Positions 75-12,169 of a stretch of DNA of 13,625 bases are shown here, one piece after another (positions within the stretch are counted from its first letter, which is position 1; each line of letters starts with the position of its first letter). The notes beneath the pieces are model-generated. The model was not told where the DNA came from, ran no database searches, and was given only the letters and a program-made list of their open reading frames with translations. A program made the translations under genes and the position numbers. Source of the stretch: a virus (lineage: Duplodnaviria > Heunggongvirae > Uroviricota > Caudoviricetes); the IMG/VR virus record IMGVR_UViG_2681813234_000008, positions 1 through 13,625 of that record. One strand, 5' to 3'.

Positions 75-1361
75 TTACCCCGCTTTCTTATGGGGCATGC
101 ATGGGACACTTTCAGATAGTCTTCTGTTAAGAAGTTCTATCTGTTCGTGATTGTTGTCTTTCATCCATGCTCCGTAAACATTGAATACCATTTGTGCGTT
201 TGTGTGGCCCATCTGGCTTGCGATAAAACTAGGATTAGCTCCTGCGGCAAGTGACCAGCATGCATAGGTATGCCTGGATTGATACGATTTTCTGTGTCTC
301 AGACCTGCGCGTTTTAAGATACTTGTCCATGACTCCCTGATGGAGTCAACCTTATAGTGCGGTCCGGAAAACTGCCGCTGTTTTATTACCTGAGGACTAA
401 AAACAAAAGTGCATTTATGCACAGTACTTCTCCCATATTCCCTCTGCTTTACCTCTACAGAATGCTGTTTTCCAAGCATGGTCATTTCCGCTTGGCTTTT
501 AAGAGCATCAATAGCTGGTTGAACTAGATGAATCGTTCTTCCGGTACCAGCATCAGTTTTTGGTGGAGTGAATTCGCCTAGTTTTGTATAATTCCGGCGG
601 ATGGTTATAGTCCTCGCTTTAAGGTCTATATCTTCCCAGGCCAGTGATACCAGCTCCCCGTGACGAATACCTGTGTATACAGCGATAATCCACAGGTTTT
701 TTGTTTGTTGATGACGGCAAGCCTCAATAAAACGAATAAATTCGTCACGGGTGAGGGGATCTGGTTCTATCCTGGACTTTTTTAATGGTGTCAGACCGTT
801 AAATGGATTTCCTGATGTATAACCATTATCTGTTGCAAATTGAAACATTCCAGCTATGGTTGTCATATAGTAGTTTACTGTGACCACTGAGCGTCCTTTT
901 ATGGAAGAAATTTTTCCGTTAGAAAGCTTTTGATAACCGGTCAACAGATCTCTCCTTACGAAAAGCAAATCCTCTTTTGTTACAGATGAAACCAGTCTTT
1001 TTTCACCTAACATTGGCAACATGTTTTTAATTACTGACTGGTAACGGTTAAGTGCATTTGCACAAATCTCTATTTTCTTCAGTTCAAGCCATCTTTCCGA
1101 AAGTGCTTTAATGGTTATCTCTCTTTTCCCCAGACCAAAGTGTTTCAGGTTAGGGGACTCAGGGAACTGTGCTGCATAGTCGAAACTCCCCATTCTTATT
1201 GCAAAACAAACGGAAGTGCGGAGGTCACCTGCGATTTTCCGGTTTTTGGCGGTGTCAGGAACACCGAGGTTTTCTCTGACACGTTTGCCGTTATAGTGAA
1301 ACCATATGCGGAGTGATCCGCCATGATTTTCAACGCCTGTTGGGTATGATGTATTACTCAT
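75..1361 (-). CDS. int: Tyrosine recombinase (phage integrase)
   Basis: 428-aa ORF with C-terminal catalytic signature (RHTYA, GHTNAQMVFNVYGAW with putative catalytic Tyr) and an N-terminal arm-type region (GSLRIWFHYNGKRVRE). Strong SD (GGAGG) 5 nt upstream of the ATG at 1361. Confidence 0.85.
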   Translation of the reverse strand: MSNTSYPTGVENHGGSLRIWFHYNGKRVRENLGVPDTAKNRKIAGDLRTSVCFAIRMGSFDYAAQFPESPNLKHFGLGKREITIKALSERWLELKKIEICANALNRYQSVIKNMLPMLGEKRLVSSVTKEDLLFVRRDLLTGYQKLSNGKISSIKGRSVVTVNYYMTTIAGMFQFATDNGYTSGNPFNGLTPLKKSRIEPDPLTRDEFIRFIEACRHQQTKNLWIIAVYTGIRHGELVSLAWEDIDLKARTITIRRNYTKLGEFTPPKTDAGTGRTIHLVQPAIDALKSQAEMTMLGKQHSVEVKQREYGRSTVHKCTFVFSPQVIKQRQFSGPHYKVDSIRESWTSILKRAGLRHRKSYQSRHTYACWSLAAGANPSFIASQMGHTNAQMVFNVYGAWMKDNNHEQIELLNRRLSESVPCMPHKKAG

Positions 1362-1394
1362 TAAACCTCCCAGACGTCCAGGAGCATTAACAGG

Positions 1395-1649
1395 TTAACC
1401 GGAACTTGCATTTTTAACACCTGGTTGTTTCTGATTTTCGATCCAGCGCATAATTTCCTCTATGTTGTATACGCATTCACTGTTGCTCTTCGGAATTCCA
1501 TCGACAGCGTAATGTCGATATTCTTTCCCCTGTAGCCATGATTTTTTCCTGGCTCGCTCAATGGTGCCTGGTTTTAGCCCTGTCGAAGCAATGAGGGTGC
1601 TTTCTGTACACCATTTACTTGGTGTTATTTGATAGATGATTGTCTGCAT
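1395..1649 (-). CDS. xis: Excisionase-like small DNA-binding protein
   Basis: 84-aa basic ORF 33 nt upstream of int on the same strand, with SD GAGGT. Position and size fit Xis/AlpA-type directionality factors; family assignment by eye only. Confidence 0.55.
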   Translation of the reverse strand: MQTIIYQITPSKWCTESTLIASTGLKPGTIERARKKSWLQGKEYRHYAVDGIPKSNSECVYNIEEIMRWIENQKQPGVKNASSG

Positions 1650-1656
1650 GTCAACC

Positions 1657-1803
1657 TCATAAAACTTTCAGCCCACGGCAGTGGCACCACACCTCAAACA
1701 TTCGTTTCACAACTTCACGGCAGTAGAAACCGTCAACATCTCGCGTCAGGTCATAACGATTGCCGTAACGCTGGCGTACCCATAGCTCAAACGCTTTATT
1801 CAT
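1657..1803 (-). CDS. Small hypothetical protein (48 aa), not in the ORF track
   Basis: Manual translation gives MNKAFELWVRQRYGNRYDLTRDVDGFYCREVVKRMFEVWCHCRGLKVL. ATG sits 3 nt after the stop of the upstream gene with an AAGGAAG SD about 6 nt upstream; it fills the gap between the 80-aa gene and xis. Confidence 0.3.
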   Translation of the reverse strand: MNKAFELWVRQRYGNRYDLTRDVDGFYCREVVKRMFEVWCHCRGLKVL

Positions 1804-1806
1804 TCG

Positions 1807-2049
1807 CTACTTCCTTTTCATGGCTCGTAATTTTTTCAGATGAGCTTCCTGCTCTGTTTCTGCCAGAATTTGTCGGTATTCCTGGTGATCGATCCGTTCA
1901 AACGATTCATTAAAATCGTTCATTTTTACCGATTGTGTTCGCCCATCCATTCTTCTGTACAACACGGTGTTATTTATGCAGCGAATAATTTTTACTGGGT
2001 AACCGGCACTGTCGGTATACAGTTGTCCCTGATTAATCAAAGCAAACAT
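1807..2049 (-). CDS. Hypothetical protein (80 aa)
   Basis: Track ORF 1807..2172, trimmed to the internal ATG at 2049, which has an AGGAG SD about 6 nt upstream. No recognisable domain. Confidence 0.5.
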   Translation of the reverse strand: MFALINQGQLYTDSAGYPVKIIRCINNTVLYRRMDGRTQSVKMNDFNESFERIDHQEYRQILAETEQEAHLKKLRAMKRK

Positions 2050-2080
2050 TTTTTCTCCTGCTCTCTGAATAGTGAGAACT

Positions 2081-2452
2081 TCAGAGCCGTATGTTTGTAG
2101 CGGGTTCAATACTGATAATTTCTGCTGAGATAAGCATCCCGGCAAGCCAGAGTTCTCTGGACAGGTCTTCATCCTGACATATCAGTTCGCCAATATTAAT
2201 GGTGGCCATGATATCTGTTTCCCCTGTGCGCTCATCCTCGACTTCTTCATAAGGCAGCGTTGCGTACAGGCTTTCAATAGCGCAACTGATAACATCCAGT
2301 CCGGTCAGATTGCCGCCGACAGTAACTTCGAATGTTTCGCGGTATTCCCATAGTCCGAAAGTTAATCGAACGGTTTGTTTTGCCATGCGTCCGCATGACG
2401 TCAGATTCGGGTCATAGTTCATTATTTGCGGTTGGGTATTATGGGTGTTCAT
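2081..2452 (-). CDS. Hypothetical acidic protein (123 aa)
   Basis: Track ORF with an AAGGGA SD-like sequence upstream, same strand as the neighbouring operon. No recognisable domain. Confidence 0.5.
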   Translation of the reverse strand: MNTHNTQPQIMNYDPNLTSCGRMAKQTVRLTFGLWEYRETFEVTVGGNLTGLDVISCAIESLYATLPYEEVEDERTGETDIMATINIGELICQDEDLSRELWLAGMLISAEIISIEPATNIRL

Positions 2453-2492
2453 CTGCTTTTCCCTTAGCCCGGCGGCCTGCCGGGCATATAAG

Positions 2493-3320
2493 TTATTTAA
2501 CCTGGATAAATGGCGTATTGGCGCCGCTGGTCATGTATTGCGGCAGTGTGCCGTTCCATTTATTGATGGCTTCCAGTTCCATAACTCCAGGGTTCTGGCG
2601 CAGAGCTTCACCGCGTAAACGAATAGCATCGGCTTCGGCCTGGGCTTTTGTGCGAATCGCATCAGCCTGTCCGGCAGCTTCCGCGCGCAGCATGTTGGCT
2701 TCCGCTTCGCGCTGTTTTACTTCCTGCTCGCGTTGCAGGGTTTTCTGGTTTGCCGTGACTTTGGCATTAATGCTGTCGATAACGGTTGGTGGGTACTCCG
2801 GTTTACCTACATATGAGAGGCTCACTACCTGAATACCGATGGGTGTCATTTCTGCCTGAATGTCTTTAAGAGCAGCATCCAGCAGTTCAGACTTGCCGCC
2901 GTCGATAAATTTGTCGGTGGTCATTTTGCTGGCCAGTCGGTTGAGTGCGTCGGCGATCTTCTGGCGCAGGTCGGTGTCGGTAATGTCATCCACGCCTTTG
3001 CGGTAAGTCTGAAACACCGTGGTAACTTTGGATGGATCAACTTTGTAGGCCACGCCAATGTGATAGCCGATGGTTGTACCGTCACTCATCTGGAAACTGA
3101 ACGGTTCATCGTAGGTCTTCATTTGTTTGAAGGTGGGGAAGATATAAACTTCAGTATTCCAGCCAGTCCAGTAGCGACCAACACCGACCACCTCACCGAC
3201 GCCTTTGTCGTCGCCCAGTTTATTTACCTTGATGCCAACATTACCTGGTTCAACGCGATCGCAACCGACAAGGCCAATAGTCGGCAGAACAATGGCTAAA
3301 GCAAAAATAATTTTTTTCAT
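2493..3320 (-). CDS. SPFH/Band-7 (HflK/HflC-like) lipoprotein, predicted inner-membrane anchored
   Basis: N-terminal signal peptide with lipobox LVGC followed by Asp at +2 (inner-membrane retention rule). Core resembles the HflK/HflC pattern (VEPGNVGIKVNKLG ... IGIQVVSLSYVGKPEYPPTV), followed by an Ala/Gln/Glu-rich coiled-coil tail. SD AAGGA; ATGA overlap with the upstream small gene. Confidence 0.7.
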   Translation of the reverse strand: MKKIIFALAIVLPTIGLVGCDRVEPGNVGIKVNKLGDDKGVGEVVGVGRYWTGWNTEVYIFPTFKQMKTYDEPFSFQMSDGTTIGYHIGVAYKVDPSKVTTVFQTYRKGVDDITDTDLRQKIADALNRLASKMTTDKFIDGGKSELLDAALKDIQAEMTPIGIQVVSLSYVGKPEYPPTVIDSINAKVTANQKTLQREQEVKQREAEANMLRAEAAGQADAIRTKAQAEADAIRLRGEALRQNPGVMELEAINKWNGTLPQYMTSGANTPFIQVK

Positions 3321-3505
3321 CTTTTATCCTTAGTGAAAGAAAGACCCTTGTAAATGGCATAAATGCAGGGCGGGGTCAGAAACGCCAGTGCAAAGCCAGA
3401 AATAACTGCTATCGTATCCTTCATGGATATAAGGAACGGAACGAGTAATCCGTAAATGCATGCGATAATTGCCAGTAAAATTACTATTGTGAAATACAGT
3501 CTCAT
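3317..3505 (-). CDS. Small two-helix membrane protein (62 aa), coupled to the SPFH gene
   Basis: Two hydrophobic stretches (YFTIVILLAIIACIYGLLVPFLI and IAVISGFALAFLTPPCIYAIY). Its stop overlaps the SPFH start as ATGA. Weak SD. Confidence 0.55.
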   Translation of the reverse strand: MRLYFTIVILLAIIACIYGLLVPFLISMKDTIAVISGFALAFLTPPCIYAIYKGLSFTKDKR

Positions 3506-3528
3506 TGGTCTGTGGTATCCCGATATTT

Positions 3529-3636
3529 TTAACCGACTGACAGCGCAATAAAGAGAATAATGATTTCAGTTAGTGTCAGTACTGTGGCAAGGATTAAAAT
3601 CAGTTTTACTCTGTTTAATTCACGGTTGCTTTTCAT
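3529..3636 (-). CDS. Putative 35-aa single-helix membrane peptide, not in the ORF track
   Basis: Manual translation gives MKSNRELNRVKLILILATVLTLTEIIILFIALSVG: charged N-terminus then one hydrophobic helix. It lies 46 nt after the 193-aa gene stop and 24 nt before the 62-aa membrane gene. No clear SD. Confidence 0.25.
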   Translation of the reverse strand: MKSNRELNRVKLILILATVLTLTEIIILFIALSVG

Positions 3637-3681
3637 ATAAACGGTTAGTAAAAGATGGAAGAATTATATTCTTCTTAATAT

Positions 3682-4263
3682 TTAATGTGTCACTGGCGCT
3701 TCTGACATACCATGAGTATTCAGGTCGTTAATCATTTCATCCAGAAGGAGTTCAAGCCCTTCGCGCCCCATAGCAGAGAGAATGAAACCATTATCAGGAT
3801 CTGCGATGAGCATTTTTTGATAGAGAAACAGAACTCGCCCGATGCCTTCAGTTTCGCCATATTTTTCAATAAATCCCCATTCGACATGGTTTTGCAGGGC
3901 AATGCGAAGTGGTCCTGGGTATATACTTATGCAACCATGTTTCCCCTTGTAAATAACTGCGCGATCTGTCGTCCCGTTATCGTTAGGGATATCAATAGTG
4001 CCGTTCTTGTCTTCCTCTTCACTGATAAACTTCATCACATACAGCCAGCGCCACTGAGCAACCTTCAGATCGACTGAAAATCTTCCCAGCAATCCGGCAT
4101 CATCAGCTTCGGCAAGACATTGCATGATTCTTAAACCGTGCCAGTATGGATTATCGAATTCGCCATCATTAAGCCGCTGTACGGCCTCAATATAATCAAT
4201 GGTTTTATTACCAATTTTTATGCCATGTGGCGTTACTTCTGGTCGGAACTCTGAATGATTCAT
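3682..4263 (-). CDS. Hypothetical protein (193 aa), distal gene of a coupled pair
   Basis: Track ORF 3682..4338, trimmed to the ATG at 4263 (MNHSEFRPEV...), which overlaps the upstream gene stop as ATGA. Very AT-rich; no recognisable domain. Confidence 0.6.
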   Translation of the reverse strand: MNHSEFRPEVTPHGIKIGNKTIDYIEAVQRLNDGEFDNPYWHGLRIMQCLAEADDAGLLGRFSVDLKVAQWRWLYVMKFISEEEDKNGTIDIPNDNGTTDRAVIYKGKHGCISIYPGPLRIALQNHVEWGFIEKYGETEGIGRVLFLYQKMLIADPDNGFILSAMGREGLELLLDEMINDLNTHGMSEAPVTH

Positions 4264-4448
4264 AATGTTTGCTCCTTTGCTGGTGGAATAATCGTGTAGC
4301 CAGCTCTTTTTGCCATCCACAGAAATGTATCCATGCAACCAACGAATTCATTATCCAACAGATGTTTTGAGTAAATTACTTCACCATTTTCAATAGTTAG
4401 CAACACTCTTACTTTTTTATGTGTTATGTTTTGTTGTTTTTCTTTCAT
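4260..4448 (-). CDS. Hypothetical small protein (62 aa), proximal gene of a coupled pair
   Basis: Track ORF with GGGAGA SD about 8 nt upstream of the ATG; AT-rich codon usage. Stop overlaps the start of the 193-aa gene. Confidence 0.5.
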   Translation of the reverse strand: MKEKQQNITHKKVRVLLTIENGEVIYSKHLLDNEFVGCMDTFLWMAKRAGYTIIPPAKEQTL

Positions 4449-4644
4449 TTATTTATCTCCCATATGCTTTGCGCAAATACAGGTTGGCTATATGAAGATA
4501 AGAATCTCCATGTTGTGCAATGAGGCAGGCAGTTTTATACGATGCCTTATGTTTCAGGAAAGTCATAACATAATCTCCTGCGAATAAAGGTTGCAACAAT
4601 CCCCGGCGATAAAACCGTAATAAACATTCAGGGAATATTTATTG

Positions 4645-5010: not shown

Positions 5011-5138
5011 GGCTTCCTCAGCTGACTTATATGTTCTGCTATATAGCGAGTCTCAGAAGTGTTTTCATATTGAGACTGTTTCCTCAATGATTGATAAAAA
5101 TGTTCGCATGTACCTTGAGGGGCGAAGCGGCGATTATG

Positions 5139-11900: not shown

Positions 11901-11930
11901 TTGACCAGACACATTGTCCGGGGCTATATT
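11901..11930 (+). promoter_or_regulatory. Candidate late promoter pR' (-35 TTGACC, 18-bp spacer, -10 TATATT)
   Basis: Near-consensus sigma-70 hexamers 5 nt after the Q stop, followed by short hairpins and an intrinsic terminator about 75 nt downstream. Confidence 0.45.
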
Positions 11931-11990
11931 CCTCACGCGCCAGCAAAATCTGGCGTCGGGATTGGCGTCCCGGATGAAAAAGGCGACAAC

Positions 11991-12012
11991 AGACGCGCCA
12001 GCGTCTTTTTTG
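11991..12012 (+). terminator. Intrinsic terminator (tR'-like)
   Basis: Stem AGACGC / GCGTCT with loop GCCA, followed by TTTTTT. Confidence 0.5.
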
Positions 12013-12169
12013 TTGTCGTTTGCACTGTCACATCTCAATGGTGGGCTGTGTGGGGGCGGAGCGATCCGCGCCGGTTCCTTTTTCCCGGTTACGCCAACCC
12101 TGCACAGTTCACCACCATACTGATTGGCGTCAGCAGTGGTGATGATTCACATAGAAAAAGGATCATCCT

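What the first reader, a model, noticed from the sequence alone, without database searches (positions are those of the whole stretch)
3529..3636. Unannotated 35-aa single-helix membrane peptide ahead of the membrane module
A short ORF with a charged N-terminus and one hydrophobic helix lies in the 176-bp gap immediately upstream of the 62-aa membrane protein. Small hydrophobic peptides of this size include type I toxins and phage membrane-depolarising peptides. It may be a third component of the SPFH module or a toxic peptide. Support is weak because it lacks a clear SD.
Basis: seen in the sequence. Interest (0 to 1): 0.4.

Follow-up and report, generated by a model that had tools for sequence, protein, structure and literature searches.

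The report
Unannotated small prophage membrane-peptide gene
A 35-codon reading frame in a gap of a phiP27-like E. coli prophage looks like a real but never-annotated gene for a tiny single-helix membrane protein, found only in this phage lineage; it is an optional add-on rather than a fixed part of the neighbouring membrane module, and nothing marks it as a toxin.

Summary
The ORF is present as described: 3529-3636 on the minus strand, 35 aa, a basic N-terminus and one 24-residue hydrophobic helix. It lies in the 176-bp gap upstream of the 62-aa membrane gene of a phiP27-like prophage. It has no Shine-Dalgarno sequence and no RefSeq or GenBank record annotates it.

It is not a chance ORF. No dinucleotide shuffle of the gap gives such a hydrophobic ORF (0/5000). 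Its codon usage matches real genes of the window (0/524 open wrong-frame windows score as high). It is intact in 46 of 47 haplotypes. Amino-acid changes are conservative, with 1 disruptive change against 5.7 expected, and the start region is unusually unstructured.

Against it: the nonsynonymous:synonymous ratio is neutral (20:10), one haplotype has lost the start codon, and it has no relatives anywhere else.

The SPFH + 62-aa pair occurs without this ORF in about 115 of 248 E. coli genomes and in Klebsiella and Fraca phages. It is therefore an optional cassette, not a core third component.

The type I toxin reading finds no support: no antisense promoter above chance, no RNA structure, no family match.

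Best reading (about 0.5): a real, lineage-restricted small inner-membrane protein co-transcribed with the module. Modest interest.

The parts
3529..3636 (-). ORF35: candidate CDS for a 35-aa single-pass (N-in) membrane peptide, MKSNRELNRVKLILILATVLTLTEIIILFIALSVG; stop TAA at 3531-3529
3637..3657 (-). AU-rich, unstructured leader without Shine-Dalgarno sequence. Most haplotypes carry a T6-7 run here; the window has CATCTTTT
3658..3674 (-). Weak AT-rich palindromic hairpin GAAGAAT-ATA-ATTCTTC (-4.9 kcal/mol), starting 8 nt after the stop of the 193-aa gene (7 intervening bases). It contains a perfect TATAAT (3668-3663) and is followed by the T-rich run. It is terminator-like but below the scan threshold, and the stem is not maintained by compensatory changes
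3506..3528 (-). 23-nt spacer between the ORF35 stop and the start of the 62-aa gene. It holds only a weak SD (GGGA, -4.1 kcal/mol)
3497..3661 (-). Exchangeable mosaic cassette that carries ORF35. Other prophages replace it with a 92-aa soluble-protein gene (EC12 type) or with a 60-bp spacer containing AGGAGG plus a 130-aa gene (90-3040 type)
3317..3505 (-). 62-aa two-helix membrane protein gene (phrog_1130, 'moron... membrane protein'), immediate downstream neighbour, overlapping the SPFH start by 4 nt
2493..3320 (-). SPFH/Band_7 lipoprotein gene (lipobox LVGC, Asp at +2)
3682..4263 (-). 193-aa hypothetical protein gene (phrog_1515), immediate upstream neighbour on the same strand

Best explanation
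ORF35 is a genuine, previously unannotated, lineage-restricted gene for a 35-aa single-pass inner-membrane peptide, with a basic N-terminus in the cytoplasm, one helix and a buried Glu24. It sits on an exchangeable cassette in the leftward, integrase-proximal operon of phiP27-like prophages and is transcribed with its same-strand neighbours. Inferred steps: it is translated without an SD from an AU-rich, unstructured start region; it inserts into the inner membrane; and it acts as an optional accessory of the 62-aa + SPFH-lipoprotein module that it always precedes. Its translation may also deliver ribosomes to the SD-poor 62-aa gene 23 nt downstream. Shown: the ORF, its composition and codon signatures, its conservation, and its distribution. 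Inferred: translation, topology, partnership and coupling.
For: Hydrophobic ORF far beyond chance: 0 of 5000 shuffles, and one of only two such ORFs among 83 in the window, the other being a recognised gene. Codon log-odds is +10.8 to +11.1 bits, the same as real 35-codon windows (9.8 +/- 5.1). It is reached by 0 of 524 open wrong-frame windows and by 0.17% of open shuffles. Synonymous codon choice is better than 5000 of 5000 composition-weighted draws. The frame is intact in 46 of 47 haplotypes, with 17-19 peptide variants, all 35 aa. The gap length is 176 or 177 nt in 56 of 60 sampled genomes out of 133; the other four aligned from query base 3 (174 nt), so no internal indel was seen, and the only indels lie upstream of the ORF. 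Changes are conservative: mean BLOSUM 0.8 against 0.23 expected (p = 0.03). Disruptive changes number 1 against 5.7 expected (p = 0.006, category defined post hoc). Events by codon position are 13:5:12, a depletion at position 2 (p = 0.036). K2, R5, R9, K11 and E24 are invariant. Variable-site density is 0.25, the same as the 62-aa gene (0.24), against 0.43 in the upstream spacer. The start region has an MFE of -3.7 kcal/mol, among the least structured 3% of ATG sites. The same slot holds a real gene in other mosaics. In those mosaics the 62-aa gene has an overlapping stop/start or a strong AGGAGG, whereas here it has only a weak SD. JGI and ENA gene callers called the ORF on a few metagenome contigs.
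Against: There is no SD at all. The N:S ratio is 20:10, indistinguishable from neutral (expected 20.2:9.2), whereas the neighbouring 62-aa gene shows a clear synonymous excess on the same haplotypes. One haplotype has ATG->ATA. There is no relative in 1.84 billion representative proteins apart from its own cluster and none in 185,579 species genomes. All divergence is 8% or less, so the selection tests have little power. The module functions elsewhere without it. No translation data are available.
Confidence: 0.5

Rival explanations
1. Non-functional ORF. The cassette is a spacer or a decaying remnant of an older membrane-protein gene. Its hydrophobic, gene-like composition is inherited, the ORF is not translated to any useful extent, and the gap merely holds a weak terminator-like hairpin between two gene blocks.
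For: No SD. Neutral N:S. A start-loss haplotype. Orphan status. Never called by PGAP in 133 genomes. Dispensable for the module. A hairpin plus T-run sits just upstream. There is a weak, non-significant match of residues 1-28 to the first 28 positions of a 67-residue PHROG (phrog_33190, E = 0.055), which could hint at a truncated ancestor.
Against: No indel or stop in 47 haplotypes. Depletion of disruptive changes and of codon-position-2 changes. Variability equals that of the neighbouring real gene and is below that of the adjacent spacer. Synonymous codon choice fits the phage's genes. Phage genomes rarely keep 165 bp of useless DNA in a packed operon (general knowledge).
Confidence: 0.3
2. 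A toxic small membrane peptide: a type I toxin controlled by an antisense RNA from the plus strand, or a kil-like host-killing or membrane-depolarising peptide made on induction.
For: The size and architecture (charged N-terminus, helix running to the C-terminus, one acidic residue in the helix) resemble ShoB, Ibs, DinQ and ZorO-type toxins (my knowledge of those families). Its location is the early-left operon, where lambdoid phages keep kil functions (general knowledge). Two plus-strand promoter-like matches lie inside the ORF, and the palindromic hairpin could end a ~75-110-nt antisense RNA.
Against: Promoter-like sites occur at the chance level (3 found, 2.0 +/- 1.2 expected). The -10 of the better-placed site is lost in 19 of 47 haplotypes. 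There is no stable or unusual RNA structure on either strand (z = -0.54 and +0.48), whereas type I toxin mRNAs are strongly structured. There is no Rfam hit and no Pfam, NCBIfam or PADLOC toxin family hit. It lies inside an operon rather than being a stand-alone locus.
Confidence: 0.1
3. The conserved feature is non-coding: a promoter, operator, terminator or small RNA that happens to overlap an open frame.
For: A perfect TATAAT lies within the hairpin at 3668-3663, with GTGACA 19 bp upstream. A T-run follows the hairpin in most haplotypes.
Against: These elements lie upstream of the ORF, not in it. The TATAAT is altered in 16 of 47 haplotypes and the spacing is non-canonical. There is no terminator by the scan criteria, no RNA structure and no Rfam match. 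This reading does not explain the triplet periodicity, the codon bias or the hydropathy.
Confidence: 0.07

Closest known systems
Small single-pass membrane proteins encoded next to, and acting on, larger membrane complexes (E. coli KdpF, CydX, AcrZ, MgtS, MgrB)
   Same: It is 30-50 aa with one helix and a short charged cytoplasmic end. It is co-transcribed with membrane-protein genes and is routinely missed by annotation. Sequence constraint falls mainly on hydrophobicity (knowledge of the class; pattern seen).
   Different: No sequence relationship. The partner is unproven. The module exists without it in many phages. No SD.
Type I toxins with the helix at the C-terminus (ShoB, IbsC, DinQ, ZorO; also Ldr, 35 aa)
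   Same: Length, charged N-terminus followed by a helix, and an acidic residue within the helix.
   Different: No supported antisense RNA, no structured mRNA, no family match, and not a stand-alone locus.
NfeD-type partners of bacterial SPFH proteins (YbbJ/QmcA, YqiJ/YqiK)
   Same: A membrane protein gene placed directly before an SPFH gene in one operon.
   Different: ORF35 has no NfeD domain. It is two genes away from SPFH. It does not co-occur consistently with SPFH; the conserved partner here is the 62-aa protein.
Lambdoid 'moron'/accessory cassettes of the early-left region
   Same: A small exchangeable unit with sharp mosaic junctions, restricted to a subset of related prophages.
   Different: No promoter or terminator of its own was detected. 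It appears to rely on operon transcription.

Membership tests
Type I toxin-antitoxin system | Small hydrophobic toxin ORF (under ~60 aa, one helix) | tested here: met
   35 aa, hydropathy 2.79, helix at residues 3-34
Type I toxin-antitoxin system | Antisense or divergent small RNA with its own promoter and terminator overlapping the toxin mRNA | tested here: not met
   Plus-strand promoter-like sites occur at the chance level. The -10 TAAAAT becomes TAAAAG or TAAAAA in 19 of 47 haplotypes. No Rfam hit. Plus-strand fold z = +0.48. Transcription itself is not testable here.
Type I toxin-antitoxin system | Highly structured toxin mRNA that sequesters its ribosome-binding site | tested here: not met
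   Minus-strand fold z = -0.54. The start region is among the least structured in the window, and there is no SD to sequester.
Type I toxin-antitoxin system | Homology to a known toxin family (Hok, Ldr, Ibs, ShoB, TisB, DinQ, Zor and others) | tested here: not met
   No Pfam, NCBIfam or PADLOC hit at E <= 1-10
Type I toxin-antitoxin system | Toxicity on expression | not testable with these tools
   Needs controlled expression
Core component of the prophage SPFH membrane module | Co-occurs with the SPFH gene wherever the module occurs | tested here: not met
   133 of 248 E. coli genomes with the module have the cassette. It is absent in the EC12, 90-3040, EC2 and PEC240 mosaics and in the Klebsiella and Fraca phages. 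The converse holds: ORF35 is never seen without the module.
NfeD family (SPFH partner) | NfeD domain (Pfam NfeD/OB-fold) | tested here: not met
   No Pfam hit; 35 aa is too short
Bona fide protein-coding gene | Open frame kept across relatives | tested here: met
   46 of 47 haplotypes intact, no indels in the ORF, gap length constant across 60 sampled genomes
Bona fide protein-coding gene | Codon usage and periodicity of the genome's genes | tested here: met
Bona fide protein-coding gene | Excess of synonymous over nonsynonymous change | tested here: not met
   20 N: 10 S against 20.2: 9.2 expected. Power is low (30 events, 8% divergence or less). Constraint is seen only as conservative replacements (p = 0.03 and 0.006).
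Bona fide protein-coding gene | Ribosome-binding site | tested here: not met
   Anti-SD duplex +1.2 kcal/mol. An unstructured AU-rich start region is a possible substitute.
Bona fide protein-coding gene | Detected translation product | not testable with these tools
   No paper in the library mentions the peptide

The most novel reading that the evidence does not exclude
ORF35 is a phage-made small membrane effector that works through the periplasmic SPFH-lipoprotein / 62-aa assembly. For example, it could be a pore-forming or depolarising peptide that the SPFH cage holds in check or releases. That would give a three-part membrane switch for superinfection exclusion, abortive infection or lysis timing in Stx-converting phiP27-like prophages.
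Probability: 0.1. Interest if true: 0.6.

Novelty: new member of a known kind. Interest (0 to 1): 0.3.

Why it matters
If it is translated, this is one more small membrane protein missed by standard annotation. It is present in about 2.5% of complete E. coli genomes, including Stx2-converting prophages of O26, O111, O145, O103 and some O157 strains. It would also give a handle on a prophage SPFH-lipoprotein module whose function is unknown. It shows how a small helix-only gene can fail the usual dN/dS test while still showing constraint on hydrophobicity. By itself it does not open a long-standing question.

Tried and rejected
A query padded with 9 in-frame upstream residues found only three 35-aa clusters at 91-94% identity.
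- Exact look-up: four peptide variants are absent from the 15-billion-protein collection.
- Full HMMER scan of 1.84 billion representatives: only the peptide's own cluster.
- DNA pattern scans of GTDB species genomes, with an exact flank pattern and with a degenerate back-translation of residues 1-12: 0 hits each.
- Family libraries: Rfam (gathering and E <= 10), Pfam, NCBIfam and PADLOC gave nothing relevant. PHROGs gave one non-significant hit.
- Terminator scan: none by its criteria.
- Third-subunit idea: rejected as a conserved feature after reading the mosaics.
- Remnant idea: the alternative cassette genes (92 aa, 130-141 aa) are soluble and unrelated to ORF35.
- Literature: no paper mentions the peptide, and no paper combined SPFH, prophage and 'phage defense'.

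Full report
**1. The observation**

The window is a phiP27-like lambdoid prophage of E. coli. The region is 97.4% identical to phage phiP27 (AJ298298/NC_003356) and 96.4% identical to several Stx2a/2d-converting phages. In E. coli chromosomes the element sits next to yecN/cmoA/cmoB and a DUF72 (yecE-type) gene.

All genes from about 5657 down to the integrase (75-1361) are on the minus strand. The order is: 193-aa hypothetical (3682-4263), a 176-bp gap, the 62-aa membrane protein (3317-3505), the SPFH lipoprotein (2493-3320), DUF5406, DUF4222, excisionase, integrase.

The reported ORF is real: 3529..3636 (-), ATG, 35 aa, MKSNRELNRVKLILILATVLTLTEIIILFIALSVG. There is no in-frame upstream alternative start, because a TAA lies 10 codons upstream (read). 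AlphaFold2 predicts a single helix over residues 3-34 with pLDDT 93.

No record inspected annotates it. The RefSeq (PGAP) records list 'none' under the gap in all 60 of 60 sampled genomes. phiP27 and the Stx2 phage records skip it as well.

The best anti-SD duplex in the 19 nt upstream is +1.2 kcal/mol, the worst of 17 starts tested. Most other genes give -4 to -11.

**2. Is it more than chance?**

Yes.
- Dinucleotide shuffles of the 176-bp gap (33% G+C) give some ATG-ORF of at least 35 aa in 8.4% of trials. None of 5000 gives one with a 19-residue hydropathy of 2.5 or more; the observed value is 2.79.
- Among all 83 ATG-ORFs of 25-80 aa in the six frames of the window, only two exceed 2.0: the accepted 62-aa gene (2.92) and ORF35. 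The next best is 1.99.
- A codon log-odds score was trained on the window's long genes against their five wrong frames. ORF35 scores +11.1 bits (+10.8 with the 62-aa gene left out of training). Real 35-codon windows score 9.8 +/- 5.1 and open wrong-frame windows score -2.7 +/- 6.3. None of 524 open wrong-frame windows reaches the ORF35 score. The other five frames of the ORF35 region score -3 to -47.
- Only 0.17% of open mononucleotide shuffles of the ORF reach its score. Given the peptide, its synonymous codon choices fit the phage's genes better than 5000 of 5000 composition-weighted random choices.

**3. Conservation**

The gap occurs in 133 of 5426 complete E. coli genomes at 92-99.4% identity. 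Its length was 176 or 177 nt in 56 of the 60 sampled rows; the other four alignments started at query base 3 (174 nt aligned), so no internal length change was seen.

I collected 132 copies from RefSeq, IMG/VR and metagenomes, which make 47 haplotypes over 3300-3800.
- The frame is intact in 46 haplotypes. One (L057) has ATG->ATA.
- There are no indels or stops in the ORF. The only indels lie in the spacer upstream.
- I counted 30 substitution events: 20 nonsynonymous, 10 synonymous, 0 stops.
- Placing the same base changes at random positions gives 20.2: 9.2: 0.7. There is therefore no synonymous excess (P = 0.44). On the same haplotypes the 62-aa gene shows 22 N: 27 S against 33: 14.7 expected (P < 0.001).
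- The replacements are milder than random: mean BLOSUM62 is 0.8 against 0.23 expected (P = 0.029).
- I defined 'disruptive' changes as a stop, loss of the start, a polar, charged or Pro residue entering the helix, or loss of an N-terminal Lys/Arg. These number 1 against 5.7 expected (P = 0.006). I defined this category after seeing the data.
- Events by codon position are 13:5:12 (position 2 depleted, one-sided P = 0.036).
- K2, R5, R9, K11 and E24 never vary.
- Variable-column density is 0.25 in the ORF, 0.24 in the 62-aa gene, 0.22 in the 23-nt downstream spacer and 0.43 in the upstream spacer.

This pattern is what one expects of a helix-only peptide selected for hydrophobicity and charge rather than residue identity. 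The divergence is small, so none of these tests is strong on its own.

**4. Distribution and synteny**

ORF35 has no relatives outside this cassette.
- A full HMMER scan of 1.84 billion representative proteins returned only its own 35-aa cluster.
- The word-indexed search returned three 35-aa clusters at 91-94% identity, from JGI and ENA metagenome gene calls in the same context.
- A degenerate back-translated pattern found nothing in 185,579 species genomes.
- The same pattern found only phiP27-type contigs in IMG/VR.

The SPFH + 62-aa pair is the conserved unit. It is found with overlapping stop/start in E. coli prophages of several mosaics, in Klebsiella phages and in phage Fraca, at 77-89% DNA identity. 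What lies upstream of the pair differs:
- In strain EC12 a 92-aa soluble-protein gene overlaps the 62-aa start.
- In strains 90-3040, EC2 and PEC240 there is a 60-bp spacer with AGGAGG and then a 130-aa gene.
- In Fraca and the Klebsiella phages there is a 135-141-aa gene with an overlapping stop/start.

Homology to the window breaks at about 3661 and resumes at about 3497. ORF35 therefore sits on a 165-bp exchangeable cassette that also includes the first three codons of the 62-aa gene.

About 115 of the 248 E. coli genomes that match the module lack the cassette. ORF35 is not an obligatory third component, yet it is never seen apart from the module.

Prophages whose 193-aa protein is only 68-69% identical still carry the gap at 95-96% identity. 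This shows that the cassette travels with the downstream block.

**5. RNA and regulatory alternatives**

- Rfam finds nothing in 3250-3950 even at E <= 10. All hits are eukaryotic or irrelevant families scoring far below threshold.
- Neither strand of 3495-3700 folds better than shuffles: z = -0.54 for the minus strand and +0.48 for the plus strand.
- The promoter scan found three promoter-like sites (two on the plus strand, inside the ORF) against 2.0 +/- 1.2 expected, and no terminator.
- The -10 of the plus-strand site best placed to make an antisense RNA across the start codon (TAAAAT, 3595-3600) reads TAAAAG or TAAAAA in 19 of 47 haplotypes.
- Starting 8 nt after the stop of the 193-aa gene there is a weak AT-rich hairpin (3658-3674, -4.9 kcal/mol). 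Most haplotypes follow it with T6-7; the window has CATCTTTT. It contains a perfect TATAAT.
- The stem and the TATAAT carry uncompensated changes in many haplotypes. At most it is a weak terminator of the readthrough type. It lies outside the ORF.

**6. Translation without an SD**

The -30..+30 region around the ATG is 70% A+U and has an MFE of -3.7 kcal/mol. Only 3% of the 263 plus-strand ATG sites in the window are as open (mean -11.5), and only one real gene of the window has a weaker ensemble energy. Absence of structure can substitute for an SD in E. coli; this is established knowledge and was not tested here.

The 62-aa gene itself has only a weak SD in this arrangement (-4.1 kcal/mol). 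In every other arrangement it has either an overlapping upstream stop or AGGAGG. I infer, without proof, that ribosomes finishing ORF35 23 nt upstream may help start the 62-aa gene.

**7. Verdict**

- Most likely (about 0.5): ORF35 is a real, lineage-restricted small inner-membrane protein gene carried on an optional cassette in front of the 62-aa/SPFH pair.
- Second (about 0.3): it is a non-functional or decaying frame whose gene-like composition is inherited.
- Toxic peptide or type I toxin (about 0.1): only the architecture supports this.
- Purely non-coding element (about 0.07): this does not explain the triplet signals.

It belongs to no known family. As a kind of thing, a small hydrophobic accessory ORF in a prophage, it is familiar, hence 'new member of a known kind' and modest interest.

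Noticed in passing
window 11924-12119 (+): Rfam gathering-level hits to isrK (79 bits), C4 antisense RNA (74 bits) and its a1/b1 target (52 bits). This is a P1/P7-type C4 antisense immunity RNA region inside this lambdoid prophage.
   Followed up: no
window 2493-3320 (-): The SPFH/Band_7 protein starts MKKIIFALAIVLPTIGLVGC-D. This is a lipobox with Asp at +2, which by the Lol-avoidance rule predicts an inner-membrane-anchored periplasmic SPFH lipoprotein. Older phage records call it 'serine protease', for which Pfam gives no support: it hits only Band_7, plus one sub-threshold DUF7945 match. No PADLOC hit.
   Followed up: partly
window ~3497 (5' end of the 62-aa gene) and ~3661: Sharp mosaic junctions. 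At least four different upstream arrangements join the SPFH + 62-aa pair at the same point, a few codons into the 62-aa gene.
   Followed up: partly
L006 3156-3374, L007 3168-3386, L008 3158-3376: In the mosaics that lack ORF35, a 'ParE family toxin-like protein' gene lies two genes upstream of the SPFH pair.
   Followed up: no
window 3658-3674 (-): A palindromic AT-rich hairpin containing a perfect TATAAT, followed in most haplotypes by T6-7. It may be a weak bidirectional terminator or a cryptic promoter. It is variable among haplotypes.
   Followed up: partly
window 4449-4644 and 5011-5138: Two further same-strand intergenic gaps (196 and 128 bp) in the leftward operon. They were not examined. 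Related prophages annotate extra small genes in this stretch.
   Followed up: no
window 3682-4338 (-): The mechanical ORF list gives a 218-aa TTG-start frame. PGAP and homologues use the ATG at 4263 (193 aa), which has a good SD (AAGGAG, -7.9 kcal/mol).
   Followed up: yes
L057 (IMGVR_UViG_2737471857_000010), ORF35 start: This is the only haplotype with ATG->ATA at the ORF35 start and is otherwise identical in the peptide. It could be a true loss or a sequencing error.
   Followed up: no
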